From Vermamoeba vermiformis (lineage: Eukaryota): a stretch of 64,000 bases of DNA. The stretch covers positions 1 through 64,000 of the forward strand of contig JBEWZL010000137.1 in the NCBI GenBank assembly GCA_045837725.1. Direction: 5' to 3'. Positions 43,141 to 63,201 of this stretch are shown here, piece by piece (positions within the stretch are counted from its first letter, which is position 1; every line of letters starts with the position of its first letter). The notes below the pieces were generated by a model. The model did no database searches, had not been told where the DNA came from, and worked only from the letters and a program-made list of their open reading frames with translations. Made by a program: the position numbers and the translations under genes.

Positions 43141-45423
43141 TTATTGTATGTTACATTTATTGACAAAATGGTCCTCGAGAGCCTCGTGTTCAATGTGATG
43201 CGTCGATGTTAATTTCAGAGCAATGAACTTGATGAACGATGTGTTGAACAGCTTGTCATAGTCTTCAGGTGCTGCACGGTTGACAATGAGCATGAACTTG
43301 AGTAGATTCAAGAACTCGTCAGAGGAATGATAGCAATTCACGCTATCGATAGAGATGTGTCCACCTAGCGATTGCGAAGTGTTATTCGCTGAGTACAGTA
43401 GTAGTCTCACTTACCCTCGTACTTAATGTGCAACGTGTATTCGCAATCGTCGATAAAACCATAGTACACGAGCTTTTCTTCGAGTTCAAATTCCGCTGTC
43501 CTCACGTCAATCACGTGCTCGTCGTTACGGACGGTAAGCACGATATGATGTTGATCGAGGACTCGCGCGGCTTTATCAATGTGTAGTGGTTGATTGAAGT
43601 GGGTCCACAACAGACCAACGCAGTTAAAGTTCTTGTAATGCAGTGCATGCGCCACTAACTCCTCAGTCCACAGCGCATTCATCCAGGGCTGAGCAGAGTG
43701 TTGGTGATACAGCGCTATCAATCGCTGGAGAGCTCCGAGCATCGCTGTGTCACTAGGATCGAGCTTCGGAATGACTTTTAACAGCTTCAACAGCTCTCGT
43801 TCGGTCAAATAATCAGTCTGTTACTCCGTTAAATTACCATACGTAGTCATTACACTGCTTACTTTAACATCCGCATTCAACAAGCAGCACAACAGTGAGA
43901 GTGACATGCTCGGTGAATTCAACAGCATCTGAGGGACTGTCAGAATATTTGTGACACTTGTCTAATATCGTCAAATACTGACCTGCATGACAGTGAAGCC
44001 CTGGTCAGTCCTAGCTTCGAGATTGATCACCTGCATGTCAATCAGTGTTTGACACGCACCCGTCCGTCCAAGTGCAAAGGCACGGTGCAGCAAGGTATTG
44101 CCGTCAATGACAGCTGTCAACAAGGGTACTGCATCTGCTCCGAGCTACGCAATATGAGTGAGAGGTAGTCTAGGATTGACACGTGTCACTTACGAGCTCG
44201 CGCAAAGCTCTCAAACCACGACTTGCATCATGTGACGTGAGACAGCAGTGAAACACATTTAACGGCCCTGAGCGATAGTCGCGCAACAGCTGTGGAGGCA
44301 CGTGATTGAAGTCTGGAGACTGCGAGGGATTTAGTTCATGAACGCGCGGAACACTAGACACTTACATCGATCATGTGCGGAATATCGCTGCAAATGATTT
44401 GAAGAAGTTCATTCTGCAAATGAATCAATTGATAGCGATTACACGCGATTAGCAATTGACATGCATTTGCAACTGTCACGTGACCAGTCAAGCGTGACTC
44501 GCACCGCTCTTTGACACCTGTCAAACCGTAGTGTGCAGCTATCAATGACAGTCCAATCAATTGTTCCGGCTCTAGGCCGTTGAGTGACAGCGAACCTGAT
44601 CACCATGTGAGTATTTCCTAATTAGGAAATGTCCACTCACCAGAATAGAAGTGCTTGATCAGCGCATCCAAACACGGCACCAGCATCGCTTCTTGGTCCA
44701 CGAGCAGCGGATGAATGTCACGTGTTCGAATCACCCACGTGTACTGGCCGTCACTGTCACGTGACTCGAAAATAGTTGCAATGTTTTGCAGCACAATCGA
44801 GTGACAGTAATACGTGCCTGCGACCCCCTCAATCGTCACGTGACAGTCGCTGAACGGTGTCACGTGATCACGCTGCGGAGTGACACGTGTCAAATCACTC
44901 GCCAAGAGCTGCGAATGACGTGTGCGCTGCGTGTCAGACAACAGCTGCGGGTCGAGTGCGTAGAGCAGTGTATCCATGTCATAGCGCTGTCACGTGATCA
45001 GCTCTATCTCGCAGGGAGATTGAAGGCCTCGCTTACCTTGTACAGATCAACCAGGGCCTGGAGCTTGTCCTCTTGTTCTATCAATTGGTCGTCGTAAAAT
45101 AGTTGCAACAAATAGCCGAGCAGATCTGGCTTGTCAATGAGCTCTGGCAAGTAGACTACAGGCGCGTTATTATACTGTCCTATTTGATGGTCTAATAGCG
45201 CACGCAACAGTGCGGCACTGCGTGTATTAATGACGAACTGGTGGCACTTGAAATGATGCCGCGGATCTATCGCTTGAGCGAGGTCAGTGGTAGTGGAGAC
45301 TAGTATATCGTAGTGCCTTTCATTATTGAACCACTTTGCGAGTGATAACAGTGAACGTGGCTTAATGCGTGCTTTGAACCCAGATGTGATGCTGGAAGGC
45401 AGCCAGGTTGACGTCTCTTTCAT
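43141..45423 (-). CDS. Protein with tandem BTB/POZ-like domains and ankyrin-like repeats
   Basis: FKCHQFVINTRS...LLQLFY, FSDCHVTIEG...YCHSIVL, AAHYGLTGVKERCE and GNTLLHRA. Confidence 0.7.
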
Positions 45424-45770
45424 AATATTAGAATTTGTTGCTTAATTTTTAATATTCTTAATTATGCGGTGGTGTTTATATTTGTTGACATTCAGTCCAG
45501 CAAAAGAAACCTTACTTACTCTGCTTGTTGGGTGGTGGGGGCGGTGGAATAAGCTCCATATTGCACTGTATAGCAATCAATGAGTCACGAATCAATGAGT
45601 CATGAATCAGTGAGTCATGTTTTTTTTGGCTAAATTGTGTTGGGTTGTGTTTTTGGGCACCCCAAATTTCTGAAACTGACGGATGCGGCAGAGAAAGGAG
45701 CTCCTTGAAGCAGCAACTGAGTTCATTTAACGCTAGTATCATATACAATACAAAGGCTCACTAGTTCAGA

Positions 45771-47248
45771 CTAATCCATCGGTTTGCCCCAATTTGACAA
45801 ACCCCCAACTCCAGGCAAGTCTGGGAATCGAGAGCTCTTCGGTACGCGAGGGGCGTAATAGCCGCGCAAGTGCGTGTAATAGCGCACCTGTTCTCTGTTG
45901 GGGAATGCTGCGCTCGCGTACAGTGATTTGAACTCTTCTCCGGACACATCTGCCAATCCGATCTGTTTCAAGAGCTTGGTAAAGTCATTAGCAGCGTAGT
46001 CATCTATACTGTGCCAACCCTTTTCCTTCAATCGGTCCATAAGACTCTCGTCAGTATCATCTTCTTGCGGCGTGAAGGGCAACAAGAGCGAGCTGATTGG
46101 GGTATCTTGGAACCATTTGTTCTGATCGCGGTCCTCTGTCTCATCAGCATCATCTTCCTCATCTTCATCTTCTTCTCCTTCGTCATCGCTACAATAGCCC
46201 TTCATGCTCAGTGCTTGCGTTGAAAAGACTTGTTCGATCGGCTTGACTTGCGGCAGGAAATACGTCACGAGATTGAAGGCCCAAGCGCATGCAAAGTAGC
46301 TCGTAAGTGCCGTTAACTCGAGCACCTTGCCATTAGTTCCAATTACAATCAATTTGACGGGAGCTGTTGAAGTCACATCCCACTTATAGTTCTCATCTGA
46401 CCACTCTGCGGCTGCAAACACTTCGTAATACGAATAGATTACTCTGTTATTCCTATTTTTCACTATTAGCAAATCATAAACGACAAAAACACCATACCAT
46501 AATGAGTGGAGCTGCGGATGTGTTTTGAGGAATTCTTGTACTTGATCTACGAGTGTCTGTTGATACTCTTGACGAGCTACCTATTCGCAACAACGTTATA
46601 GAAGAGTATTGATACGTCTAGTACGTACAGTTTTGCTTAAAATCTGCAATCTCTGCAGATCTGACAGTTCAGAATTCTTGATGTGGCTGAGCAGTGATTC
46701 AACATGCTCAAGTGGTCGTTTAGAACGCGATAGAGCCCCATATAATCTGCGCCAGTCCAAAGCCTTAGCATTACTGGATAGCTTTCCGATCCGCCGCAAA
46801 CACAAGCCGCGCCAAATCTGCACTTCTGAAAAGAGTTTTTCGAAGTACTTAGAGGTCGTTAATAGCGAAATTATTTCGAATATATCTAAGTGTGCTGCTA
46901 TGTTGAGTAACGAGTCCTTGCTGAGCGAGCTCAAAGACGAAGTGTCCTCTTGTTCTGCCGCGGCACTTGGATCTGCTTTGAATCGTTTTGCAGCTCTTTC
47001 ATCGTGATCCTCCTTGCCATGGTGATTATTATGATCATCGTGATCGCTTTGGAACGAAACATTGGTGCAATTAATAACGGCTCTTTCGAATTTATCTATT
47101 AATTTCGGCTTACGCTTTGCGTTTTTTAGGAGGCTAATTAATACACGATGGTTAATATATATGCAATTGGGCAGTATTAATTAATTTATTCTTTGGTAGT
47201 ATTCGATACACTAATTGTAAACCTGTTTTAGTAAGGCTTACTTACCAT
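45771..47248 (-). CDS. F-box domain protein with an acidic region
   Basis: LSSLSKDSLLNIAAHLDIFEIISLLTTSKYF...WRGLC; ATG|GT first exon. Confidence 0.7.
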
Positions 47249-47427
47249 GGCTTGCAACAGCGAGAAAAACGGATCAGTTGTGGTGACTATATGTATGATC
47301 GTTTAATAATTGAATCCCTTCATGTCAAGCACGGGACCAGTTTTTCGACACAAAAGGGGATCTGTTCAAAAATTTCATTTTTGTTCTCGCACAACGAATC
47401 AACAGCACATCTTAATCAATATCAACC

Positions 47428-47655
47428 ATGTCAGATAAATACACCATCAACGGCAAGAAGATCGCCAAGAGCAAGTTCGAGGAGTTTAAGCGCACTTTAG
47501 AGTGGGACGAAGATCGCGGCGAAAACAAGACCGAAAAGGGTGGCGTTGAAGGTACTTACTACGAGAACGTCAAGGCTGGTGATGGTCGCGTGTACGAAAT
47601 GTTCTTGGGCGCCGACGCTGATGGCTACGACGTCTGTTACATCAACAAAGTCTAG
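47428..47655 (+). CDS. Small charged hypothetical protein, 75 aa
   Basis: Intronless ATG-TAG ORF with strong C/G-ending codon bias inside AT-rich flanks. Confidence 0.7.
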   Translation: MSDKYTINGKKIAKSKFEEFKRTLEWDEDRGENKTEKGGVEGTYYENVKAGDGRVYEMFLGADADGYDVCYINKV

Positions 47656-48315
47656 AGCAGTAGATGCAGCTTGATTTTGTTCGGGTCTGTATTTAAATGC
47701 ATCAGATCTATTTATTTCATAGCGCACTCATTTGTAAAAAGTTGAAATAAATGATCTGGCAATTAAAATATCACATCCTTTTTTCATTCAATAATTGCGC
47801 TTAATATTCGTAATATACACACAATAATTTGTGGATAAATATTGGTAATTATTGCCTATTAAACAGTGCTAGACTTCAATAGATCAGATTGATCGTTGAT
47901 CGAAAGCGAGTTAACTTATGTAACAAAGTAATGCAAGCAAGGCAAGGGTATAATTAAACAAGTGTATTTGGCGCAATTGGGACTCGATTTCAATCTGTTA
48001 ACGGTGCGGTTCAATCGATCCACGATACCCGTTGGCGTGTTAAGATCATTAAGTTCAGAATAGGCATTAATCGTCCGGATTGGCAGTGTCGCTGTTCATT
48101 ATTATAAGAACAAGCTAGTATACGAGTCGGAATCATGCTGATTGGTCCTCAGTCTGTTCGAGTGTACTCGGCGGAAGTAAAAACCAATTCTACGCGACCA
48201 GTCATACACAACACCACTGCGCTATCATACATCAGCAGCACAATTGCGTGATTAACATCGAATCATATTCCAGAAGTAGATATAACAAGCACTTCTTGGA
48301 GAAATTTGACGTGTC

Positions 48316-50335
48316 ATGGATGAGACTTCTGTTGGACTGGATCCAGCTTCAGAGTACGCTAAATGAATTATTACATATTTTACATTAATTATTATAGTTG
48401 TATTGACACTATTATATTCAAACAAGCGCAATTAGAATTTAATTCTGCAACAAATTCAAAAAATAAATTCCAAATAATTCCTAATATTTCTATTAGAATG
48501 GAAGTAGCGCCACACTCGCCTAGTATCAGTGAACCAAGTACTGTGGAGCCCATGAAAACAGATCTGCCACCGAAAAGACCACTTGAAGACGATACCACTA
48601 TTGTTACAAACACAGCTGACAGCGATCAGAATAGCTTCAATAACTTTAATACGAACAATACCCAAGACTATAATAGACTTAAAAGACCAGCCAAGCGCGT
48701 ATTGCGTCGAGCACGAGCACATCCGACCAGTGCCGCGCGTACGTGGAATGTGTTTGTCGGAGATCTGCGCTCAGAAGTGACTGAAGCTGATCTGCTGCAC
48801 GCATTCAGTGGTTGCGGACCTATTAATAGCGTCCATATTGTCAGAGACTCACTCACTGGTCAACAACGCGGATTCGGCTTCATTCACTTCAAGACCGCCG
48901 AGGCACAGCTCAATGCCCTCAAAGTACGTTACAATACGATGCATGTATTGAATACGATGCATATATTGAATGTGATACATATATTGAGTACGATGCATAC
49001 AGTACTCATATATATGGAGTACTCGCATCAGCCACGATACTAACCCCTGCCTATACACAGGAGCCCTACGCGCGCCAAGTGATTCGAGGCCGAGCAGTGC
49101 GCGTGTGCATCAGCGACGAGAAGAACACACTGCTGCTGCACAATCTCGCACCTGATTGGTCCGCTGAAGATCTCGAGCTCGAGATTACGCGTCTCGTATC
49201 GCACGTGCAGTCGGTGGAGATCAGAAAGCGCGCCTTTGAGCCGATGAGTGCTGTCATCACTTTCACCAATCACGACAGCGGAGATAAAGCCCGAAGAATT
49301 CTTGCAAAGACTCAACTGCGCGGTCAACGGCTGTCAGTCACGTGGGCTGAGACTGGTACGTCGTCAGTGACACGTGTCAATGAGCCACCACCGCGGCCAG
49401 CGAGTTATCCGCTCTATATTTGGAACTTGCACGCCACTGTTGACGCGACACTGCTGCGCGCACTGTTCTTGCAGTTCATGAACGCGCCCTCTGATCACGT
49501 GGGGCAGTGCACGTGTCTCGGCGAGGGTCGGGCGGTGTTGGAATTCAGTTCGCAATTTCTCCGCGCACGAGCTCTCAAAGCACTGACCAATGTGAAATTT
49601 CGTGGCAGCGCACTATATTTGGCAACGTCCCCGCCCAGCTCGTCGTGGCCCTCGCGCACCTTATTTGGCAATCACTCTGTAAATACCGCGTCCTTCAGTG
49701 AATCCAACTACCCTGTAAATAGCTACACTGTAAATACCTCCGCGCCACCCTCCCCGCACCGCTCCGCTCCCCGACACACCCGCGCGCGACTCGATGTCGG
49801 GCACGAACCCCCCGACATTTCGGGACTCAGCACGCGACCCACCAAGCGCGCTCGAGCCCCTGACACGCAGACCTCCGCGCTGACCCCGCACTACTACCAC
49901 TCCCCGCCCCCGACATTTGCAGCCCCGCACTTCAGTCCGGGCCCGACATTTGTCCCGCCCCCGACCTTCACGCAGCCCATGACACTCGTGACCTCCTTCG
50001 TGCCCGTGCTCGGCTATCAGACCGTCACGAACATCGCACCTGTCGGGCCCCTCGTCCCTGGCGCAGGTGTCCCATTGACAGGTGTCACCAACAGTGTGCT
50101 GCCAGTGAGTCCGTTCTACGTGCCCTCCATGTACAGCCCGTACTACACGCCACTGCACTCGTACGCACCGTCAGTGCCCAGCAGCGAGGTGCGCAGTGAG
50201 GAGCACGTGACAGACACGCACGATGAGGGGCACAACAGTAGTAATAGTGCGCCTAGTCTCGCTCACAGCAGCACTGCAGAACTCGCGAGTGAAGCGCATC
50301 CAGAGTCCGCTGAGGACAGTGAAGTGCGGCAATGA
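48316..50335 (+). CDS. Multi-RRM RNA-binding protein with a Pro-rich tail
   Basis: NVFVGDL (RNP2) and RGFGFIHF (RNP1), plus further LLLHNL and LYIWNL RRM starts. Confidence 0.85.
48933..49004. repeat. Intronic 18-bp minisatellite, ~4 copies
   Basis: AATACGATGCATRTATTG units. Confidence 0.8.
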
Positions 50336-50653
50336 ATTTGTATCATAGGCCCAGTATAATAGATATCGAACACTATGACCTGCGAATAAACACCCCCAGT
50401 TGTACATAACATGTGCTGTGTTACTCATAGTAACTAGCCTGATAACGGAACTGCCAGACTGATGGTACCAATACCACTATTTAGTTGGGATGTTCAGTCA
50501 CGCTGTCAGTCCCGTGTCAGGGCGCGCAAGATTTATCAATTTTATTTTGGAACTGAATCTTGGCGAGTGTGCGACATTAATAATTCCAAATTACAAGACA
50601 ATAGAATCTAGCACATTTGTGTTGCGTATTTGTCGATAATTAATATTGCAATA

Positions 50654-52427
50654 ATGTCAAAGTTGTACTTGTTGTTCGTTGTTGTCGCCGTTGCGCAGAT
50701 GTGCCTCGCGCAAACGGTCACTCAGCAGAAATGCTCTGATAAAGGAGGTACGCAGTATTTAATGTTAAATAATTTACTCGGTTATACCAGCGTGGTTAAA
50801 ACCGCTCGGCAATTAACCAACAAATCCGTTCGATCAGATTTCGCCAGTTCGAAATTTAGTTTCGTAATACATTGGGTAATTAATTAATATTATGCAGGCG
50901 AGTACTCGCAAGTGTTCGGTAATGCTATTTTCACCAACAATGCCTGGACCACGCTCTCTAACAACAGAAACGTGACTTTGGCCTCGGTGTGCATCAAGTT
51001 CCACGAGGACTGCTTGACTGAAGGCACTAACTGCCCGCTGTACATTACGTTGGGCACAAACTACGCGTACTTTGACCGAGTCGACGGCAGCAACCAGGTA
51101 CGTGCGCTCATTGCAAGACCATTGCAGAGAACAATTTATTAACGGACCGAATGAATTGGTTCCGCTACATTTATTGCATGATAGTGCAACGAATATGATG
51201 CTAATATTATGACGGTATACATTGTCATTTGACGAAAGATACGGCTGAACTCCGCACGTGGCGGATGTGTCACGCGTATCGATCTAAATTTTATTTGCGC
51301 TGTATTGTCGCAAAAAAGCGACATAATATTAAAATAGTATTATATCGCTAATCACATTATTCAGATCATCGTCGTGGAAGCTGAGTTTGATTGGACCTCA
51401 GATTCGCTCTACAACCTCGGCAGTCCAATCAAGAACTCTTTTGCCGCCATTCCGCGCGCCGTTGCAGCGCACTTCCCTGGCCTCGACAAGGCTCGCGTCT
51501 ATTTAGTCGGCTGGTCTAGTGCTGCTGGTACGTATTCACCACTCCCACTCTAGTACTAAGTGCACTGTACTCACTGGATCTGTTCGCTGCACAGCGGGTA
51601 TCTCGCGCGGTTTGATGGAAACTTTCCGCGGTGTTGATCAGTCGCCTTATGGCGGCACCTCCAATGTCTACGCTGCTGGTGAGTACTGTTGATATGACGT
51701 GTATTTGTCGTGCAAACCTCTCATTGACACGTGTCAAACAGTGGCCGCTATTGGTGCGTGCATCACTGCCAACGACGCCACGGTGTGGGGCCGTCAAGTC
51801 GACACCAAGCTGTGCGGTCAGTTCCACGTGTTCAACACTGTCGGTCAGAACGACACGACCTACACGCGCGACGAGTGTCAAGTTGCCCTGCAAGACCTCG
51901 CTGTCACCAACAAGTGCTCGCGCGTCAACTCAGGCTGGTGCTACGCTCAAAAGAGTAAGTCACGTGATAGTTAGTCCAGCGCGCGTATTGACACGTGTCA
52001 AACAGACGACCCCTACGCCCCCTACGCTGACGAGGGTCTAGTGCGCTACCTTGACTTTGGCAGCTGTCCCGGCGGTGACGTGCGCGGCTACTCCTTCGTG
52101 GGTCAAAAGAAAGTCACGACCTACACGAACACCAACCCCGACACTGACGCCTATCAAGTGGTCTGGACCTGGCTGCAAAACCGTCAAAAGCCGTTCGGTC
52201 AAGGTCAATTGGGCCCGCACGAAGGCACACTGCAGTTCTGCAATGCTACAATGACCCCTTCACAGAGCTGGACCTATCAGCGCGAGGACTGTGATTTGAA
52301 CGCTGCGTTTGCGACTGCTGACGCTCAATACACCATCACCATGCCTGTCTCTGGCCGCATCAGCGCTGCCTCCTCCCTCGCACTCACTGCTAGCGTGCTC
52401 CTCGCTGCTGCTGTGCTCTTGGCCTAG
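50654..52427 (+). CDS. Secreted, probably GPI-anchored, Cys-rich alpha/beta-hydrolase-like protein
   Basis: Signal peptide MSKLYLLFVVVAVAQMCLA, LDKARVYLVGWSS nucleophile-elbow-like motif, GPHEG, and hydrophobic C-terminus ...SAASSLALTASVLLAAAVLLA*. Confidence 0.6.
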
Positions 52428-52801
52428 AGTGCCTGGTACTTGTAGTTGTAGAAGTCTCTTGCTAGTCTCTGCTAGTAAAGACTATTTATTCGAGTTTGTG
52501 CAATTGGTGGTGCCAAAGAGTAATTTAGATCCGGTACCAATAGGTTTCCACACCGAATCCGAGTCAAATTATCGTATTGTACATGAATCAATCGCAGAAT
52601 CCAGCTTCGTTTGCTGATTTAATGGCAAGCCATCATTCTGCTGTTTCCAAAGTGCTCACAGCTGAATAAGTTGCACCATTTTGTCCGGACCTGGTAAACG
52701 CGAGCTGGTGCGTTAAAGCACAACAAGAGATTCATCCAAAAGCGTATGTGGAGAGGACGGGCAGCCCAACGCGCCTCACTAATTGGCTCATTAAGAAAAT
52801 A

Positions 52802-54199
52802 ATGCGCAGCTTCTTATTCACAACTGATTACACCGTGTGCGACTCTTTTTTTGGTTTATTTATTCATCCACTATACATAGCAGAGTTTGGCCAGGGCTTC
52901 CTGATGAGGTTATCGCTATAATATTTTGTCATATTGACACGATATCTCTTTTCAGGTAAGGTTGATTCATCCAAACCAAAAATTTTATTGCAATCAAATT
53001 ATTTATTAATATTTTTGTAGTATGGCTCAAGTATGTAAACGGTGGCAATGGGCTGTGTGGCAGAATGTATCAAACGTTAATCTCACAGGCAAAGTTGATT
53101 ATTATAATAGAGACATGGGCCTAGATGCAAAACAAAAAGTAGTCCTACTCGCATTTTCCCGCCTGGCTTATCTTCGTGTGCAAGAGATTTCTGTGCCTGG
53201 GTTTGTACTTGAATTTGGGTATGATGTGATTACTTTATTACTGTCAACAATCATTAATAATGCTGTCACCTCGTAGTTCAGATACTTTGGCTAAAATGAC
53301 CAATCTCCGTTCATTATCCATCTCTACGAAGGATTATTATCACGTTGCAAAAGACTTTGTGAGCAAACTTACTACGTTGACTCGTCTCACATCGTTATGC
53401 ATCCCTATCAAATTGAAAGAAGAAGACGCATCTCACCTCACGAGATTATCTCGGTTGTAATACTTGTATTTTCACCATCCAGATCTACATTCACTGGATT
53501 GGATTGTTAAACTACAACATTTGCACACTCTACGCTTGGAAGATTGGTCTTGCTATGAGTGGAATGGCACTCAAATAACCAGTTTGACATTAACCCATTG
53601 CAAAGAGAAGCATATGACCAAAATATTACTATTCACACAGTTAAAAGAGCTTCGTTTGTTAAACAATTATTATGATGCCCAACTGGCGCAGTTAACTAAT
53701 CTCACGTCTCTCGGTGTCGGGCGGTTTCCATCTTTGAAGGCTGAGGATGAGATGCCTTCACATATCAAATCATTTTCAGCAAAAGTACTGCACACAAAGA
53801 AACTCTGGTCGTTTACTTGCCTTAACGAGCTCTACACAGGTACATCTATCAATCTATTCTAAAGCATTAGTGTTGAACTATAATATTTAGTATTTAGGGG
53901 CAAGTCTAAGTAAATTTACGGTTCTAAGCACATTGCCACAACTTCATACACTAGTAATATATGTTGGTACATTGGACCTTGTATCGCAACTGACAAATCT
54001 AACCCGTCTTGGACTGGAAGACTTGCCTTATCTTGAACCCCGAGATACTTTTTCAGTATTCAGTCGCTTGTCAAATCTTCGCGTGTTGGAATACTCCACT
54101 CGTGGTGACTCAGATATACCACCTTCATCAATTGCTGATGTGTTTCCGATCGGAAATGTGTTAATCAGAAGACGTCCACTTATTGAAGGCTATGACTAA
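52802..54199 (+). pseudogene. F-box/leucine-rich-repeat gene with an in-frame stop
   Basis: LPDEVIAIIFCHID F-box and LTNLTSL-type LRRs; TAA at 53458-53460 falls inside LSRL*YLYF. Confidence 0.65.
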
Positions 54200-54269
54200 T
54201 TACTGATCAGGCGTTTTTTCTTTCCTTGCCTTGTGAATATATTTTACATAAATACACATCAATACAAGC

Positions 54270-56987
54270 TCATTCGTCATTAGTTTTGTTCTCTGTACTC
54301 TCCACAGCTTGCATTCCCTCCCCAGTGTCGAGGTGCTTGTTCGCGGCACTGTCCTCTGCGGGCTGGTGACTATTGTTCCGCTCGACTAACTCCGGCATCG
54401 ATGTCTCGCTGACGATAACATTGCTGTTGTTCTCTTCGTTCACTGAACGGCTGTCACTCTTCGCTTTGAGCTCGTCCATGGCACAGCCAGTCATCAGATG
54501 CGTCAAGTGCACTTGAACACAGCGCTGCAGCGAGTCGAGATCATACCCGCCCTCGAGCACGCTGATCAGTCTGCCGGCACAGTGCTTCACCGCGAGGGCT
54601 TTGAGCTCTTCAGTCATGTACGCGTAGTCTGACTCGTCCAGGCGCAAACACTGCACTGGATCGTCTTTGAAGGCGTCAAAGCCTGCTGACAGCACAATCA
54701 GCTCGGGCTTGTACTCGTCAATGGCCGTCAAGATCTTTTCTCTGAACGACACGTGTTAGTCATGCACACCGTTCACTGAAACACTCACTTGAAAGCTTTG
54801 CGGAACTGAGCACTGGTTGAACGGTTTTTGAGCGGCACATTGATGATATTTTTGGCGGGTGAAGTGAGGCCAGTGTGCGGATAGACCTCCGAGCAGTGCG
54901 ATGAGATGAAGAGCACGTGATCTTTGAAGCGCTGATTGGTCGCCATGATGTCTTCTGTGCCGTTGCCGTGGTGCACATCTGTGACGTGTCAGTGACATGT
55001 GACACGTGTCAATGAGCAGCACGTACCGAAGTCGTAAATAACGACACGTGTCAGTCCTCGGTTGAGTGCGTAATTGACACCGACAGCGACGTTGTTGATG
55101 AGACAGAAGCCCTGGGACTGTGCCTGCGCGTGCCCTGAGTGACCTGCGTGGTGCCCTGGTGGACGATCAGTACAACGTTTCAGTGAACGAGATATTCCGT
55201 ACCTGGAGGACGCACTGCACAGAACACGTGACGCACTTGCGCCAGTTCATCGTCGAGCGGGGCAATGTACAGCGAGTCAGGCTGCGTGTTGCTCTGCGAA
55301 TCGAGTTGTTCCGCTGGTGGCACGTGATCAGCGAGCACAATGTCTACTGCGCGACACACGGCACTCGCACTGGCCAGCGCGGCATCGAGTGAGTGACGCG
55401 AGACAAATCTGCGACAGGTGAGTGAGTGACACGTGTCAAACAGCGCACTGGACTAACTATCACGTGACTTACGTGTCCTGTTGCTCCGAGTCACGTGACT
55501 GTTCTTGACTCAACTGCGTGCCGTGCTGGGGCAAGAAGGACAGACTGCGCGAGACACGTGCCTTCATCTTGGCGAGATAGGCCTCGCTGTGGATCTGACT
55601 CAACTGATCACTTGCCAAATTAGGCAAGTCGTTCAGCTTGACGACCATCATATGTTCCGCGACGACTTTGCGCAGCTCGTCAATGCCACTCAAGATGTAT
55701 TTGAGTCGCTCTGGCTTCTCCAAGTGCCACTCGGGCACGATGTGTGTCAGACAGGCCTGGTGCGCGTTAATATATATTAAATATCTAGATATCTGTATGT
55801 ATATGATGTGTATACTATATATAGATATCTGTATACAACTAGGTACCTCGTCGTACAGGATGGCCAGTTTGTGTCGTGCACTGAATGAGTACCCGCGCAG
55901 GGCGATCTGATCGACATATTTGGCAATCCACGTGGCACGTGCGCGTTGCGGTCGAGTGCTGCGTGTCGGTGTCGCGTCACTTGCCTTATTTGTACTGCTG
56001 TCTGTTTTGCGCTTCTTTTTGTCGCGTGACGGGCCCCAATCAGCGTCCTCTGCCACGTCATCAGCCGAGTCTTTGCGACTCTTTCGCTTCTTTCCTTTTT
56101 GGGTCTTGGATTCGGTCTCCAGGGCCTCTTTGGGCTCAGTGCTGTCGCTATTTTTAGCCTCGCTGTCACCATGCAGTACCGCACTTGACACTTCTTCAGT
56201 GGGTGTCAACGACTGCTTGACACGTGTCTCGAGTGTCTGGTGCTCATTGCCTAATTTGGTAACATCACGTGCCTCGTCCTCGACAGCTTTGTCTTCTTTG
56301 TCCGTGTCGTCGCTGTACACTTCCGGCGCGAGGGTGGAGGTCGAGCGCGTCAAGTCACGTGACTCGTGCGGTGCCACCAAGCGGTACACGTAGCACTTGC
56401 CTGATAAGGAAATCTTGTCGCCCAATTTGAGCATGTACTCTTTGTCGGCACTGAGCTTGAGGGGCTCGGAGTGATCTCCGGCCACGAGATACATCGTGTT
56501 GCCACCGAGCTGCACGAGAATTAGAGCGGGTGACACTAATAGCCTTAAATAGATCTATCGCAGCTAATTATAGATCACATCCGTTCACTGAACACGCACC
56601 TGTTTGATCTGCGCGCTGTTCTTGCTCACTGCCGTAAGGACTGCTTGGACGCGCGAGATGGAGTGGATGGGCCGCGACTCTTCAGCGACAACATCTCTGC
56701 GGCCTATTGACACTGGCTTATTCAACTCGCTGTAGTGTTGGCTGCTCGTTAGTAGTGCAATGCGCGGCAGTTAAATTAATTCGTTGAAAAATACTGCAAA
56801 ATTGATTTTAATGTTGGGACGATTGATGTTATTGCCGCAACACTATGAATATTATATATAATTCCGTATTAATTTACTGGCCAAGGAGCGGTGATGTTTG
56901 AACAGATCGAGTCGCAACAACAACTTACAGCGGGATCCAAGGGTTTTCACCCGACTCAGGCTTCAACCAAAATACAGGATCAGTCAT
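54270..56987 (-). CDS. Class II-like histone deacetylase with an N-terminal FHA-like domain
   Basis: HLEKPERL, RPPGHH, GFCLINNVAV, DFDVHHGNGT, SAGFDA and LEGGY motifs; N-terminal SIGR...ISRVQ...QLGGN. Confidence 0.9.
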
Positions 56988-57091
56988 GCTAGTGTTCGGT
57001 GATATCAATCGCGTTCCTATTCACAAATCAAGTTGAAATGTGGTGTTGACAGCTCGATCAGCATTAATAATTCTGTGCGCAATGCAACACC

Positions 57092-59969
57092 ATGGAGCTC
57101 GATGAAGAGGCTGATAATGTGCTCGAAGTGGTGCCTGTTGTTACTGGCGACGAGGAGGACGATGAGAGCGCGAATAAACGATTGAAGGTAATGCTCGAAT
57201 GGAGAATATTTTGTTCTGCCGTGTGGATCTTGCAGCCACATCGTTGTATAATTAAAATATAATACTATAGGCTACTCATCACCGGTATGAACAATATGAA
57301 CACGTTAAACAACAATATGAAACGATTAAGCAAGAGGTTGACACCGATCTGCGCAATTTCACTGAAGTACGGCTCACTGCGCACTATTACCTGCAAATAT
57401 GGTGCATAAATCGCACTGCTATCAATACTAATGTTATATTTGCACCTTAGAAAGTCTTCGCGCGGAACAAAGAGGTCCTGAAACAGATTGAACAGTTGGT
57501 GGCGCAGCAAGAGTCACAACTGCGCGAGAAATACTATTGTAAGTCATAATATATACATACATATATATATACTGCCGCATATAGGAGTGCATTGGACTGA
57601 TGACGAGCAGTTGTACCGCACTGTTATGCCGCGCAGATCCAAGCACGACCCCGCAGCACACAGCTCACTATGACGCAGGTGCCCCTCACCCCTATACACA
57701 TGCCCCTCACCCCTATACACATGCCCCTCACTTCTATATACATGCCACCACATGCCAGCACACCACACACCACAGCACACGTGACTGTACGACACAATGT
57801 AGCGGTGCACGGCTTTGAAGAGTACTCGCGCCCGCGCTATTATGCACCGTACTTTGAGGTATAGACGTATATAGATATAATATATAAATAGATAGAGTAC
57901 TGCGGTCAATACTGACGACAGCCAGGACGGGGACGCAGAGGCCGATGAAGAGACAATACGCAAATATTATTATGCACCCCCGCGCTACTTCAACGACGTG
58001 GCCACTGAACTGCAATTGTTCCGCTTGCTGATGCTGCTAGAGGATAAGCGTGAGTCCTAATTAGGAAATAGTGCAGTATTCGACCAGCTCGTTCATGAAC
58101 TGACAGTGCCACCAGACACCTCGGAAGAATTGATTTCACCTGACAGCCTTGAACTCGCGTCACGTGTCAGTCGCGTGCCAGCAGCTGTCATCAAGTACTA
58201 GTGCGTGACACGATGATATTTCCTAATTTAGACATGTCACTGAGCGATTGTTCCGCAGTTTCACTGAACACCGGGGCTATCTGCAGTGGAAGACACAGCG
58301 CGCCACGACACACAGCACGGTGATGAGTCACGACGAGTTCTGGGAGTGGTACTGTCGCCAGTGCGCGGTAGGACTGTCGCTAGCACGTGATCGGCACTGA
58401 CACTTTCCAAATATAGCAATTCTTGTGCGCGCGACACGACCACAACAACAAGTGGCGGCCAGTGCAATGTGCGCGGCGTGCGAGTGCGTTGAACGAGGTC
58501 GAACTGCACAGCCCCGCACCCTGCTCTGACACCTGTCACTCCACGGTACGTACGGGCAGCTGTTTGACACGTGTCACTGACAGCACTACAGACTCCAGTA
58601 GGCGAATTCACACGCGTCATTTCAGCCCTGCAGATGGAACTGCTGCGCAACGGACTGATTATCTTTGCTAAAAATTATTGCCAAATTAGGAAATGTCACG
58701 CGCCTAAACTGACATGCGCAGAGGTAATTACATGTACTATGATCACCCCATCATCTCATGACACGTGTCATTTGCAGGTACGCGACTACTGCGTGACACG
58801 CTTGAGTGACGTCAAATCATTGCCTAAATTGGCAGCACCACAGACCAGAGACTGGAAGATCCTCTCGCGCAAGAGGACGGGCGACAGAGGTACGTGACAC
58901 TGTGCGCGCAGTCCACCGATTGACAGGTGTCATTCAGAGCTCGCTGCGTATCAGCCGTGCAGTCACGAGGGCAAGTGTCACAAGTCCGCCAAGTGTTACT
59001 GTTACGCGCACAATTTGCACTGCGAGAAGTACTGCGCGTGCGGCGAGTTGTGTGGCAATCGCTTCAAGGGCTGCAAATGTACGGCACGGAGGTTTCAGGA
59101 CTGCACTGACTTTCCTAATTAGGCAAGCACACCAGCAGCGCGACAGACATCACGTGCGCGGGACTGAACTGCGAGTGTGTGCTGCACGGCCGCGAGTGCG
59201 ATGTTGACACGTGTCAATGTGACCCACAGACCTGCGGACGGCGAGATTTGCAGACAAAGCAACCAAAGGTATACAGCGGTATAAGTCACCCCTCGTTCGA
59301 GTATACTTATTCCAAATTTAGCACCTGTGGATTGGTGCCAGTGCCGTGGCTGGGTTTGGTCTGTTTTCAGTGAACAGAATTCAGTCGGGTGAATTCATTG
59401 GCGAGTATGTCGGTGAGGTACGTTGAGCTCTATTTTTAGAACTACGCGCTGACTTGCCAAATAAGGTAATTCCCACCAACGAAGCAGAGCGACGCGGGTT
59501 GATCGCCGACAAAATCAAGCGCAGCTATCTGTTCGACACTGGCTCCGATCTGTGCGTGGACAGGTACGACGCTGTTGATTGGTTCATGAATTGACTGATT
59601 TGTAACACTCTGTGAACAGCACCAAATTTGGTAATCGACTCAAATTCGCCAATCACTCGTCCACACCCAATGTGCAGCCCAAACAACTGCGCGTGAATGG
59701 GGAGCTGCGTCTGGCCTTCTATGCCATCGAGGACATTGGTGAGTGACACATTTGACAGGTGGTTCATGAACGCACACTGACACGTGTCATTTGCAGAGCC
59801 GAATGAAGAGCTGTTCATCAACTACGACTACGCAGACCCGAGCTCGAAGGGCATCACCAACGAGCGGCCAATCGACGTGCTCGCGAACAAAGGTCACGTG
59901 ACTCTGTTGGAGATGCAATCTCCCGGAGATATTGGCGAGCTGATGGACTCCGAGGACTCCACTGACTAG
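57092..59969 (+). CDS. Enhancer-of-zeste-like CXC-SET histone H3K27 methyltransferase
   Basis: YQPCSH...CEKYCAC...NRFKGCKC...RECD CXC domain; GFGLF, FIGEYVGE, EAERRG, SYLF, GNRLKFANHS and ELFINY SET motifs. Confidence 0.88.
57681..57743. repeat. Intronic 21-bp minisatellite, 3 copies
   Basis: GCCCCTCACCCCTATACACAT units. Confidence 0.85.
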
Positions 59970-61195: not shown

Positions 61196-63201
61196 CTATA
61201 CAGAGGGGTAGTCAACGCTGAGCAGTTCAAACTCTTGCGACGAGCTCAAGCTGATCTCGCTGTGTTCTTGCGCACAACTCGCGCCATTCATCACTGGATT
61301 CTGACGCGTGGAGCTCGAGCGACGTGTGCGACTCTTTTTGTTGGGAGCCATCAACACGTGTTCGTCCATGCTGCGCGCGAGAGGATTGAAGTGGTGGTGC
61401 GAGGCAGTGGGACTGGTCGGTGGCAGATTGGTGGAGGCAGTGAGCAGACTGTGCGAGCGCTGCAAGTTCATCTCGTCCGCTGTTCTCTTGCGCGCAGAGT
61501 ACATGGGCGAGCACGGCGGGGAGGGAGGACTGTTGAGCGGTGAAGTAACAATGTACTCGGCGAGTGGATTGCACTTGATCTCACCGCACGTCGACAATCG
61601 ATCGTAGCCCTGACTGTGCTGCTCTGCGCGGTCTTCAATCTGCTCCAAGATCTCCGCAGTGCTCGCGGGGGAGAAACACACTGTGCTCTCGCGCAGCTCG
61701 TCGAATATTGTCTGGTGCACAAAGAGGTACTGTTCTTCGGTCTGCACCATGCCTCGATTGCGTTGACGGCGCAGGGAGAGCACAATGTCTAAGATATTCA
61801 CACCGAGCGGATTGTTGCAGTAACAGCGCGAGAGCTCTTTCAGTCGGTGATTGACGTTGTTGTTGTTACTCGCACTCTCCACATCCATCATCTCCACATC
61901 GTCGCATGACTCAGCGTGACTCGGATTGAAGTTCGTGTTCGTGTTCAGCACAATGTGTCGTGAGCCTCCGTTGTGCTCTGGTTTGTTTTCGTTAAAATAA
62001 TTGGTGCCACAGTACAGCTTCTCCAGGGCCACAGATATGGCTAAAAATGCGCCAGTTCTGCCAATGCCAGCCGAACAGTGCACTACTGTCGGGCCAGTGA
62101 CGCCCTTCTGCGAGGCTGTCTGTCTGTACATGTTGGTGAGGTGAATCAATTCGCGGATTGGTCTTGTCGTTTCAGGCACGCCAAAGTCAGGCCAGCCTTT
62201 GAAATGCAGTTGTACAATCTCGCGGGTCTTCTTTTCGTGCGTGTTTTCAATTTCCAAAACTCGAATCTTGATCTGGGCAAGTTGATTGGCCTATTAGCAA
62301 CAAATGCAAAAACAAAGTATAAACAATAGAGAAAACAGAAGTGTTAGAGTTGATAGCATTTGCTTCAGTTTGTTATGGAAAGGAAATAAATTTGAATTGC
62401 CGAAAATAAAACAGAATCCAATAATAGAAAATTATCTTTGACTGAATGGTCTTACCACGCGAAATGTAAACGACTTCTTTAACGTTACTCTAATCTTGCC
62501 GAATGATTTAGTCTCTTTCAGTTTGTTTGGCCAATACATGTGGCCTTTAATCCTTCCGTTCTCTTTCATTCGCATCAAAACAACAACAACTGGAACATTC
62601 TGCGATTGAATACGTTAATATATTGTCAGTTATATTATATTACGTTATTTGACGCGCAAATTAGCGTTTAAGTAACGGAGTTCGTGCTCCACCCTTCGAT
62701 TGGAAATCCGTAGAAAAACTCACTGGTTTCATAACGATTTTGAATTAAAATGCTTACCTGCTCCCAAACCATACGCCAAAAGTCTTCAAATGTTTGAGGA
62801 AGAGGTGCTTGACAACATATAAAGCACGGAGAAGATGAGAACTCTCCTCGAACAAAATTTGCATTTATATAATCAGACCTGTAATATAATTATTGTTAGA
62901 ACAATAACGTATTTAATTGAGTCCTCTGGAGCATAGTTGCTATTATTTCTCCGGGGTTTTTAGAGATACACGGAATTAAGGAAATTATGAATCTCGCTTA
63001 CCCTTCTCTTCCGGGTTCATAAGCTAATCTAACAATCGTCTCTTCCACTGGTAATACATCTCCGTATCTATTTTTTGTCTTATTACAAAATAAATTTGCG
63101 CTTTGGTGCATATATTTGAGCTCGATGGAGGAGCGGGGTTTTGTTGTTAATGCAGTGAGCTTTGCAAATTCTTGTTTAATAGCTGGAACATCGAGGCTCA
63201 T
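61196..63201 (-). CDS. Classical protein tyrosine phosphatase
   Basis: [30 protein letters not shown] and MVQTEEQY motifs. Confidence 0.95.

What the first reader, a model, noticed from the sequence alone, without database searches (positions are those of the whole stretch)
51955..55472. Near-identical introns in unrelated genes (introner-like)
Seen: intron 51955-52005 (+, hydrolase-like gene) and intron 55409-55472 (-, HDAC) share an identical first 25 nt, GTAAGTCACGTGATAGTTAGTCCAG, and then both continue to TTGACACGTGTCA. The HDAC intron also shares GCTGTTTGACACGTGTCACT with an E(z) intron near 58559. Two hydrolase introns end identically in ATTGACACGTGTCAAACAG, and two E(z) introns end in TGACACGTGTCATTTGCAG. 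Known: introner elements create families of similar introns. Inference: recent intron propagation or conversion.
Basis: partly seen in the sequence, partly recalled or inferred. Interest (0 to 1): 0.72.

Follow-up and report, generated by a model that had tools for sequence, protein, structure and literature searches.

The report
Look-alike short introns sharing palindromes
Two tiny introns in neighbouring, unrelated genes really are near-copies of each other, but most of the likeness among introns here comes from a 12-letter palindromic DNA word packed into five adjacent genes, so nothing yet shows a jumping "introner".

Summary
Introns 51955-52005 (+) and 55409-55472 (-) match at 42 of 46 bases without gaps, from the GT through TGACACGTGTCA. 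They are the clear outlier among 1275 intron pairs. The first is spliced in RNA contigs. The second is inferred from reading frame and collinear HDAC-domain matches.

TGACACGTGTCA ("P12") occurs 11 times in the window, all within 43.4-60 kb: 8 in introns, 3 in exons, none in intergenic DNA. In 6 of 10 P12-type introns its TGAC sits 12-16 nt from the 3' end, where control introns carry their branch-site-like motif. Other palindromes are confined to the same five genes: GTCACGTGAC, CC[AT]AATT[AT]GG and GTTCATGAAC. In exons they exceed what codon usage predicts.

The HDAC intron is a mosaic. Its 5' 25 nt equal the first intron and a 3' 20 nt equal an E(z) intron. I read this as patchy DNA copying (conversion or template switching) between nearby palindrome-bearing introns.

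A true introner or mini-MITE family is not excluded. The genome was not available. No target-site duplications were seen, the 3' tails differ, and only one further locus with the same ends turned up in metagenomes.

Verdict: partly supported, moderate interest.

The parts
51955..52005 (+). Intron I1 (51 nt, phase 1) of a secreted-protein gene. It reads GTAAGT-CACGTG-A, then a 22-nt spacer, then TGACACGTGTCA, then AACAG.
   Evidence: RNA contig joint 51954/52006 GT..AG; sequence; open spliced frame.
55409..55472 (-). Intron I2 (64 nt, phase 2) inside the HDAC domain. Its first 46 nt match I1 at 42 of 46 positions. Bases 29-48 are identical to E(z) intron 58546-58591. An 18-nt unique tail follows.
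   Evidence: open frame; Hist_deacetyl collinearity across exons. Its joint was not among the rows printed.
58546..58591 (+). E(z) intron 8 (46 nt). It shares GCTGTTTGACACGTGTCACT (20 of 20) with I2, and a separate CTGAC lies 11 nt from its 3' end.
   Evidence: The intron is inferred from frame only.
51679..51741 (+). Intron 4 of the secreted-protein gene. It ends in CTCATTGACACGTGTCAAACAG and shares its last 19 nt with I1.
   Evidence: RNA joint 51677/51741 (cut +1).
54979..55026 (-). HDAC intron 5 (48 nt) with CTCATTGACACGTGTCAC, followed by CTGAC 10 nt from the 3' end.
   Evidence: The relative's RNA reads skip 54970/55029 with 10 unaligned letters.
58724..58777 (+). E(z) intron 9, ending in TGACACGTGTCATTTGCAG.
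   Evidence: Inferred from frame.
59739..59796 (+). E(z) intron 15. It ends in TGACACGTGTCATTTGCAG. Its 5' end GTGAGTGACAC pairs with the 3' GTGTCATTTGC (MFE -21.7 kcal/mol, z -2.56).
   Evidence: the flanking exons match the SET profile.
58890..58937 (+). E(z) intron 10, carrying the variant palindrome TGACAGGTGTCA 5 nt from the 3' splice site.
44145..44193 (-). Intron of the BTB/ankyrin gene that has the palindrome at its 5' end (GTAAG-TGACACGTGTCA).
   Evidence: Inferred from frame.
44881..44892 (.). Exonic copy of TGACACGTGTCA in the BTB/ankyrin gene. The exon (44641-44986) holds 8 CACGTG sites.
49336..49379 (+). Exonic two-box unit in the RRM-protein gene: AGTCACGTG, 23 nt, TGACACGTGTCA. 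It has the same layout as the first 46 nt of I1 and I2. It overlaps an in-frame GT..AG stretch of 45 nt (49356-49400) that is retained in RNA.
   Evidence: X6 contig 49069-49769 has no gap, and the relative's reads cover the stretch.
59205..59216 (.). Exonic copy of the palindrome, encoding part of the E(z) CXC domain (VDTC).
   Evidence: Exon 59149-59268 matches preSET_CXC at residues 2-23 (E 2e-4, below the curated cut-off).
43144..59969 (.). Palindrome island. Five genes (BTB/ankyrin, RRM protein, secreted protein, HDAC, E(z)) contain all of the window's copies of G[AT]CACGTG[AT]C (20 of 20), TGACACGTGTCA (11 of 11), GTTCATGAAC (4 of 4) and CC[AT]AATT[AT]GG (7 of 7).

Best explanation
This is an unidentified intron-rich microbial eukaryote. 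Five adjacent genes carry a dispersed family of short palindromic words. The main one is TGACACGTGTCA (P12, of the form TGACA-NN-TGTCA), and a frequent partner is AGTCACGTGA/GTCACGTGAC.

In introns, P12 mostly lies where the branch site should be, and its TGAC(AC) probably serves as the branch sequence. That placement, followed by ordinary 3' splice signals, is why many intron ends look alike.

On top of this, short stretches next to the palindromes have been copied at the DNA level between nearby copies. I favour short-patch gene conversion or replication template switching anchored on the shared palindromes. This produced the 46-nt near-identical pair I1/I2 and made I2 a mosaic of an I1-like 5' part and an E(z)-intron-8-like 3' part.

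Shown: the motif statistics, the intron, exon and intergenic distribution, the outlier status of the pair, the mosaic, and splicing of I1.

Inferred: branch-site use, the copying mechanism, and that both introns already existed before the copying.
For: (1) The pair is real homology.
- 42 of 46 identical without gaps.
- Top of 1275 intron pairs: score 36.5 against a next-best of 20.5 and a median of 6.
- Still top after masking the splice sites and P12: 23 of 24 identical.

(2) I2 is a mosaic.
- Bases 1-25 equal I1 (25 of 25).
- Bases 29-48 equal E(z) intron 8 (20 of 20). The 8 bases flanking P12 match intron 8 at 8 of 8 but I1 at only 3 of 8.

(3) The flanks of the 11 P12 copies reassort. Among the 22 outward 5-mers, AACAG occurs 4 times, ATGAG 3 times, CTGAC 2 times and TTTGC 2 times, in different left-right combinations. 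CTGTT-P12 is found in both orientations relative to the gene. That points to copying of DNA rather than to an RNA signal.

(4) The similarity ends at the palindrome and not at the 3' splice site (tails of 5 and 18 nt). This is what a tract anchored on shared motifs predicts.

(5) The three loci involved lie within 6.7 kb.

(6) Branch-site position. In 6 of 10 P12-type introns the A of TGAC is 12-16 nt from the 3' end. In 17 control introns the last yTRAy is 10-17 nt away in 13 of 17. None of the 17 control introns outside the island contains CACGTG (read).

(7) Motif enrichment.
- P12: 11 observed against 0.01 simulated.
- G[AT]CACGTG[AT]C: 20 observed against 0.35 simulated (200 local Markov simulations).
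- P12 density is 3.4 per kb in introns, 0.34 per kb in exons, and 0 in 5.6 kb of other sequence.

(8) A third gene, from a metagenome, has an intron with the same 12-nt ends but an unrelated middle. The ends therefore recur without whole-intron copying.
Against: - No direct evidence shows that I1 and I2 pre-existed at their positions. Orthologous DNA from relatives could not be obtained, so creation of one of them by insertion is not excluded.
- Gene conversion normally needs longer homology than two 12-13-nt anchors.
- Exonic copies (3 P12; 32 CACGTG against 8.3 under synonymous shuffling, 0 of 200 shuffles reaching 32) show that the palindromes do something, or are generated by something, unrelated to branch sites.
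- In I2 the P12 lies 27 nt from the 3' end, and in one BTB intron it lies at the 5' end.
- Metagenome DNA contigs of run X5 match the window up to 51743 and up to 59797 (2 contigs each) and then run into unrelated sequence. These points are just past two P12 introns. It hints at more look-alike intron ends elsewhere, which would fit a larger repeat family.
- Only 64 kb of the genome, plus 2.5 kb of a possible relative, could be examined.
Confidence: 0.5

Rival explanations
1. Mini-introner or mini-MITE. A mobile unit of about 46 nt (GTA-AGTCACGTGA, 22-23 nt, TGACACGTGTCA) inserts into genes. It brings a 5' splice site and a branch site and borrows a downstream AG. I1 and I2 would be its youngest copies, and older copies would keep only the two boxes.
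For: - The same two-box layout with the same spacing occurs in four places: I1, I2, the metagenome GGPPS-like intron (spacer 23 nt), and an exon of the RRM gene (spacer 23 nt).
- The two boxes are imperfect inverted repeats with a CACGTG core.
- The 3' tails differ, as expected if the AG comes from the host.
- X5 contigs diverge just past two P12 introns.
- Introners are commoner in aquatic organisms (PMC9860276), and this organism turns up in water metagenomes.
Against: - Only one pair has a homologous spacer.
- No target-site duplication appears in any of the four flanks (read).
- Borrowing an AG 5 or 18 nt downstream would delete coding bases, which is awkward for frame.
- The mosaic structure of I2 needs recombination anyway.
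- The pattern scan found one further locus in metagenome contigs and none in genome contigs or viral contigs. The window's own loci were also absent there, so that sampling is poor.
- RNA folding of I1 and I2 is not exceptional (z -0.61 and -0.49).
Confidence: 0.27
2. Selection only. The palindromes are binding sites for dimeric DNA-binding proteins (TALE-homeodomain-like TGACA-NN-TGTCA, bHLH-like GTCACGTGAC, MADS-like CC[AT]6GG) or RNA structure signals. Under this view the introns look alike by convergence, without any copying.
For: - Several different palindromes co-occur in the same five genes.
- Exonic copies exceed the codon-usage expectation.
- 5 of 7 single-mismatch variants change only the central CG to CC or GG, keeping TGACA..TGTCA.
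- TGACAGCTGTCA is used as a TGIF1 site in PMC6158717 (search listing and abstract only).
- In 49192-49528 the relative's reads show 27 listed differences, none inside P12 or the five CACGTG sites (36 nt). The chance of that is about 0.05, and the list is truncated.
- CACGTG pairs spaced 31-32 nt apart account for 4 of 27 close pairs.
Against: - Convergence cannot explain 13 identical non-motif spacer bases in I1/I2, or the 8 of 8 flank identity between I2 and E(z) intron 8.
- There are no copies in 5.6 kb of intergenic and other sequence inside the island, where promoters would lie.
- The assignments to transcription-factor families are resemblances that I recalled. They are not tests.
Confidence: 0.13
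3. RNA-level intron transposition. A spliced intron reverse-spliced into another transcript, was reverse-transcribed and recombined into the genome.
For: - The identity starts exactly at the first base of both introns.
- There are no flanking duplications, which resembles the seamless fungal cases (PMC8469720, abstract).
Against: Reverse splicing copies the whole intron. Here identity ends 5 and 18 nt before the 3' splice sites, and I2's 3' part matches a different intron.
Confidence: 0.05

Closest known systems
Introner elements (Micromonas, Aureococcus, dinoflagellates and others; Gozashti et al. 2022, PMC9860276, passages read)
   Same: Similar introns sit in unrelated genes. The organism appears to be aquatic. 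The intron ends bear inverted-repeat-like boxes.
   Different: Known families have at least 4, and usually hundreds, of copies. Many of them show TSDs or TIRs. Here there is one homologous pair, no TSD, a unit of only 46 nt, unlike 3' tails and a mosaic structure.
Fungal introner-like elements and 'sister' symmetrical (stw)introns of Hypoxylaceae (PMC8469720, abstract read)
   Same: Integration is seamless without flanking duplications. Symmetry or complementary ends are a feature. The introns are of near-normal length.
   Different: The fungal elements have 45-55-nt terminal inverted repeats and scores of copies. Here the boxes are 9-12 nt, and folding is not better than shuffles for I1 and I2.
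Single intron duplications reported earlier in this scan (Naegleria P450, e1-671734 and e1-673023)
   Same: A short intron of about 50 nt is copied almost exactly to a second site nearby, with no sign of a spreading family.
   Different: Those copies lie in one gene and are full-length. Here the copies lie in two unrelated genes on opposite strands, and they are partial and recombinant.
Palindromic homodimer site of TALE homeodomain proteins (TGIF1 bound to TGACA; PMC6158717, listing and abstract; the wider MEIS/PKNOX assignment is recalled)
   Same: The form TGACA-NN-TGTCA is shared. The exact published 12-mer occurs once in the window, at 44108.
   Different: The commonest centre here is CG, which also makes an E-box. 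The sites lie in gene bodies and not in intergenic DNA. No binding data exist.
Palindromic repeats that sit in-frame inside coding genes (Rickettsia palindromic elements; recalled, not checked)
   Same: Short palindromic repeats are tolerated inside open reading frames.
   Different: Those are bacterial, 100-150 bp long and clearly insertions. The E(z) exonic copy here encodes conserved CXC residues, so it is not an insertion.

Membership tests
Introner elements | A family of at least 4 similar introns in unrelated genes of one genome (criterion in PMC9860276) | tested here: inconclusive
   2 of 51 introns examined in the 64-kb window are homologous beyond shared motifs. No whole genome is held.
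Introner elements | Similarity covers the element from end to end and accounts for both splice sites | tested here: not met
   Identity runs from the GT for 46 nt and stops 5 nt (I1) and 18 nt (I2) before the AG.
Introner elements | Target-site duplications and/or terminal inverted repeats | tested here: inconclusive
   No TSD was seen in the 4 two-box units. The end boxes AGTCACGTG and TGACACGTG (reverse complement) match at 7 of 9. Four units are too few for a statistical TSD test; the paper used at least 15.
Introner elements | Recent gain: the intron is absent at the orthologous site in relatives or other strains | not testable with these tools
   Only RNA reads of a 90-95% identical relative were laid, and RNA cannot distinguish a spliced intron from an absent one.
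Fungal introner-like elements / symmetrical sister introns | Unusually stable predicted secondary structure or long terminal inverted repeats | tested here: not met
   I1 z -0.61 and I2 z -0.49. Only E(z) intron 15 reaches z -2.56 among the 9 P12 introns folded (8 of the window and the L001 intron).
Patchy gene conversion or template switching between dispersed repeats | Mosaic identity to different donors, with tract ends in shared sequence and the donors close by | tested here: met
   I2 bases 1-25 equal I1 and bases 29-48 equal E(z) intron 8. The tracts end at P12 and at the 5' splice site. All three loci lie within 6.7 kb.
Spliceosomal branch site | A yTRAy motif 10-20 nt upstream of the 3' splice site | tested here: met
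   This holds for 6 of 10 P12-type introns (A at 12-16 nt). Two more have a separate CTGAC at 10-11 nt, and 2 do not fit. Actual branch use was not tested.
Transcription-factor binding palindrome (TALE, bHLH or MADS type) | Matches a known site, lies in regulatory DNA and is bound by the factor | tested here: inconclusive
   The form matches. There are 0 copies in intergenic and other DNA of the island. Binding is not testable here.

The most novel reading that the evidence does not exclude
The 46-nt two-box unit (5' splice site plus AGTCACGTGA, a 22-23-nt spacer, then TGACACGTGTCA) is the smallest intron-making mobile element yet seen. It would spread within gene bodies by palindrome-primed DNA copying rather than by a transposase. 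It supplies donor and branch site in introns and is tolerated in-frame in exons. The palindrome island would then be a snapshot of introns being built and homogenised by self-propagating palindromes.
Probability: 0.2. Interest if true: 0.78.

Novelty: new variant of a known kind. Interest (0 to 1): 0.45.

Why it matters
How new spliceosomal introns arise, and why some introns look alike, is still debated. The known routes are transposon-type introners, reverse splicing and repair of DNA breaks.

This locus offers a clean case of intron sequence moving between unrelated neighbouring genes in a recombinant, patchy manner. The copying is tied to a palindromic word that doubles as the likely branch site and is also written into exons against codon expectation. 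If genome-wide data show that the two-box unit is widespread, it would be an unusually small intron-generating or intron-homogenising element. If they do not, the locus is still a useful warning that shared motifs can mimic introner families.

Tried and rejected
- **Whole genome of the window:** not held. The genome-wide all-against-all intron test could not be run.
- **Earlier notes of this scan:** nothing on this genome or this sequence. A word search gave only analogies.
- **Collection scans** with GTAAGTCACGTG-N(8-38)-TGACACGTGTCA: one further locus in metagenome contigs, seen in two assemblies (L001, L002). There were 0 hits in genome contigs and 0 in viral contigs. The window's own two loci were not in the metagenome collection, so these zeros say little.
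- **The rest of the L001 contig:** could not be searched because the record is not held.
- **The search for related loci** with the last exon of the secreted-protein gene in genome contigs: no relative found.
- **Rfam on the whole window:** 0 matches.
- **Literature:** searches for the 12-mer and its variants and for palindromic motif, short introns, CACGTG and branch point found nothing on such an intron motif. I therefore found no prior description in the library searched.
- **Protein atlas and a 'longer' RtcB homologue search:** gave no lineage information. The CMTR1-like ORF has its best named hits in Capsaspora (56%) and Monosiga (50%), so the lineage remains open.
- **Gene finders:** my first three automatic intron and gene finders gave wrong or noisy models. 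The final models were curated by hand against the RNA joints and checked for open frames. E(z) intron 3 (57539-57610) remains uncertain.
- **Masking control:** the first version was faulty because N matched N (second half). It was redone.
- **RNA hairpin as the general explanation:** rejected, because z-scores are mostly unremarkable.
- **Codon usage as the explanation of the exonic motifs:** rejected.
- **General purine-pyrimidine alternation:** considered, because CACGTG, GCGCGC, CGCGCG and TGCGCA head the list of palindromic hexamers. The other alternating palindromes are not in the top 15, so I dropped it.


Full report
**1. Observation**

I read 50.5-60.5 kb of the window.

The 25-mer GTAAGTCACGTGATAGTTAGTCCAG occurs exactly twice, at 51955-51979 (+) and 55448-55472 (-). 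No other site lies within 3 mismatches, and none appeared in 100 shuffles.

Aligned without gaps, the two introns agree at 42 of 46 positions, from the first G to the end of TGACACGTGTCA. After that they end differently, in AACAG and in CTCACTCACCTGTCGCAG. The repeat finder reports this pair as the longest inverted repeat in 43-61 kb (46 nt, 91%).

**2. Are they introns?**

No genome is held for the window, so I laid public reads. RNA contigs of run X6 skip 51955-52005 precisely (GT..AG). They also skip:
- the other four introns of that gene;
- four E(z) introns (57859-57925, 58050-58115, 58201-58258, 59269-59321);
- a BTB-gene intron (44987-45036).

Only 15 of 98 joints were printed, and the HDAC intron 55409-55472 was not among them. 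I curated models of the five genes by hand. Four translate without internal stops. The RRM gene's start was one base off there, and was corrected without a new translation.

Exon-by-exon Pfam matches are collinear:
- Hist_deacetyl profile positions 1-56, 73-110, 112-149, 151-216 and 220-297;
- preSET_CXC and SET for E(z). The short exons score below the curated cut-offs.

So 10 of the 34 island introns have exact RNA support, and 2 more have inexact support from a relative's reads. The rest rest on frame and domain collinearity.

The 'hydrolase-like' label has no support: two exons gave 0 Pfam families.

**3. What else is shared: a palindrome island**

TGACACGTGTCA (P12) occurs 11 times in the window, all between 44177 and 59789. 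CACGTG occurs 71 times, against a mean of 21.5 (maximum 32) in 200 local Markov simulations.

The following motifs lie entirely within 43.4-60 kb, with simulated means of 0.35 or less:

| Motif | Copies inside the island |
|---|---|
| G[AT]CACGTG[AT]C | 20 of 20 |
| P12 | 11 of 11 |
| GTTCATGAAC | 4 of 4 |
| CC[AT]AATT[AT]GG | 7 of 7 |

With my gene models, P12 has these densities:
- 3.4 per kb in introns (8 copies in 2370 nt);
- 0.34 per kb in exons (3 copies in 8847 nt);
- 0 in 5609 nt of intergenic sequence and of the AT-rich neighbouring genes.

Exonic counts exceed what the proteins and codon usage give, and no synonymous shuffle out of 200 reached them:

| Motif in island exons | Observed | Synonymous-shuffle mean |
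|---|---|---|
| CACGTG | 32 | 8.3 |
| G[AT]CACGTG[AT]C | 12 | 0.9 |
| CC[AT]6GG | 6 | 0.3 |

In five control coding stretches elsewhere in the window, CACGTG was 7 against 2.9, with 5 of the 7 in RtcB. The longer motifs were absent there.

One exonic P12 encodes part of the conserved CXC domain, so it is not an insertion.

Of the 7 single-mismatch variants of P12, 5 change only the central CG to CC or GG. The general form is therefore TGACA-NN-TGTCA.

**4. Position in introns**

In 6 of 10 P12-type introns (9 in the window and 1 in L001), the A of P12's first TGAC lies 12-16 nt from the 3' end. In 17 automatically predicted control introns outside the island, the last yTRAy motif lies 10-17 nt from the end in 13 of 17.

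Two further P12 introns have a separate CTGAC at 10-11 nt. In I2 the P12 is 27 nt from the end. In one BTB intron it abuts the 5' splice site.

None of the 17 control introns contains CACGTG (read). P12 is therefore not the organism's general splicing signal.

I recall that the bases following a branch A can extend pairing with U2 snRNA, which TGACAC would do. This is recalled and was not tested.

Branch-site placement plus ordinary acceptor sequences (AACAG, TTTGCAG) explains why pairs of introns 'end identically' over 19 nt.

**5. How special is the I1/I2 pair?**

Local alignment of all 1275 pairs among 51 introns (34 from the island, 17 controls) puts I1/I2 first. Its score is 36.5, the next is 20.5, the median is 6 and the 95th percentile is 10. 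No control intron appears in the 20 best pairs.

After masking the first 6 nt, the last 3 nt and P12, I1/I2 is still first. The score is 21.5, with 23 of 24 bases identical. The next pairs, at 15 and below, are due to the CC[AT]6GG palindrome or to AT-rich runs. The 99th percentile is 11.

Only this pair is homologous beyond motifs.

**6. Mosaic structure**

I2 bases 1-25 equal I1 (25 of 25). I2 bases 29-48 equal E(z) intron 8 (20 of 20). The 8 non-palindrome bases in that segment match intron 8 at 8 of 8 but I1 at only 3 of 8.

More widely, the outward 5-mers of the 11 P12 copies repeat: AACAG 4 times, ATGAG 3 times, CTGAC twice and TTTGC twice among 22 flanks. Left and right flanks occur in different combinations. 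CTGTT-P12 occurs both as an internal segment (I2, E(z) intron 8) and, reverse-complemented, as the acceptor end (I1, intron 51679-51741).

Copying that ignores gene orientation and reassorts flanks points to DNA-level exchange at the palindromes.

**7. Other loci**

A scan of metagenome contigs for GTAAGTCACGTG-N(8-38)-TGACACGTGTCA found one further locus in two assemblies. It is a 50-nt intron in what reads as a geranylgeranyl-diphosphate-synthase-like gene (my reading of the translation). It has the same 12-nt ends, a 23-nt CG-rich middle unrelated to I1, and P12 3 nt from the AG. Another intron of the same gene carries TGACACCTGTCA near its 3' end.

An exon of the RRM gene in the window holds the same two-box layout: AGTCACGTG, 23 nt, P12 (49336-49379). 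It is present in RNA contigs and in the relative's reads.

CACGTG pairs spaced 31-32 nt apart make up 4 of 27 pairs closer than 100 nt, which is only a modest peak.

Prokaryote-genome and viral collections gave no hits.

In run X5 (water-metagenome DNA), 2 contigs match up to 51743 and 2 match up to 59797, then run into unlike sequence. These points are just past two P12 introns. It is a lead that more look-alike intron ends exist, but the matched lengths were not shown.

**8. RNA structure**

P12 introns fold to between -6.9 and -21.7 kcal/mol, against 0 to -10.9 for seven control introns. Against dinucleotide shuffles, however, only E(z) intron 15 (z -2.56) stands out, together with a BTB intron holding the 18-nt palindrome ATTTCCTAATTAGGAAAT (z -2.84). 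I1 and I2 give z -0.61 and -0.49. A hairpin is therefore not the general explanation.

**9. Interpretation**

*Best reading (about 0.5).* A dispersed family of palindromic words occupies the transcribed parts of these genes. In introns, P12 usually doubles as the branch region. Short-patch gene conversion or template switching, anchored on the shared palindromes, has copied neighbouring bases between nearby copies. That gave the I1/I2 pair and the mosaic I2.

*Rival 1 (about 0.27).* A 46-nt two-box mini-element creates introns. It is favoured by the recurring layout and disfavoured by several points:
- there is a single homologous pair;
- there are no target-site duplications;
- the tails are unlike;
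- an insertion would have to delete coding bases.

*Rival 2 (about 0.13).* Pure convergence on protein-binding or RNA motifs. This may explain why the words exist. The form TGACA-NN-TGTCA resembles TALE-homeodomain sites (PMC6158717, listing and abstract), and the other family assignments are recalled. It cannot explain identical non-motif bases.

*Rival 3 (about 0.05).* Reverse splicing, which is contradicted by the unlike 3' tails.

What the palindromes do in exons, and why they avoid intergenic DNA, remains unexplained.

**10. Comparison with what is known**

Gozashti et al. (PMC9860276; passages read) keep introner families of at least 4 similar introns. They find TSDs and/or TIRs in 59.2% of assessable families. 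The Hypoxylaceae sister (stw)introns (PMC8469720; abstract) have 45-55-nt terminal inverted repeats, many copies and no flanking duplications.

The present case shares the look-alike introns in unrelated genes and the lack of duplications. It fails or cannot be tested on copy number, full-length similarity and recency.

I found no paper describing this motif in introns. Supplements were not consulted.

**11. Verdict**

The introner interpretation is partly supported: one genuine copied pair, with the remainder being motif sharing. I file it as a new variant of a known kind (intron-to-intron sequence copying), with an unexplained palindrome island attached. Interest is 0.45.

Noticed in passing
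window 443-707, 1864-2414 and on to 3397: Tandem arrays with periods of 60/120 and 86/172 nt, built around another palindrome, TTACGG[AT]CCGTAA. There are 24 strand-wise hits and about 0.04 expected. They lie in open frames at the start of the window.
   Followed up: partly
window 44612-44633, 55610-55630, 56245-56266, 58051-58072, 58217-58238, 58402-58422, 58676-58697, 58817-58841, 59109-59130, 59452-59472: A second palindrome family of the form CC[AT]6GG (for example ATTTCCTAATTAGGAAAT and CTTGCCAAATTAGGCAAG), found in exons and introns of the same genes. In three E(z) introns its A/T-rich half ends in the acceptor TAG or AAG. It resembles MADS-box sites; that resemblance is recalled, not tested.
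   Followed up: partly
window 44334, 49474, 58091, 59762 (and 59583, a shorter form): A third palindrome, GTTCATGAAC: 4 of 4 copies lie in the island, 3 in introns and 1 in an exon. GTTCA[CG]TGAAC occurs twice in the HDAC gene.
   Followed up: no
window 49356-49400: An in-frame 45-nt stretch with a GTACGT start, P12 inside it and a CAG end, which looks like an intron. It is retained in an RNA contig and in the relative's reads. The relative differs densely on both sides of P12 but not within it.
   Followed up: partly
window 57680-57746: A 21-nt tandem repeat (3.2 copies) inside an E(z) exon, encoding a repeated proline/threonine-rich heptapeptide.
   Followed up: no
window 48933-48999: An 18-nt tandem repeat (3.7 copies) filling the 137-nt first intron of the RRM gene. 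That intron ends with a canonical TACTAAC-type branch site.
   Followed up: no
window 45.4-48.5 kb and 52.4-54.3 kb: AT-rich F-box and LRR-like genes lie between the palindrome-rich genes. They carry none of the palindromes and have little or no RNA depth.
   Followed up: no
window 62599-62762: In the relative's RNA reads the joint is 62599/62762 (CT..GC, with 4 extra letters). X6 contigs use 62599/62758 (CT..AC). This is either a strain difference or an alternative splice site, in a highly expressed minus-strand gene.
   Followed up: no
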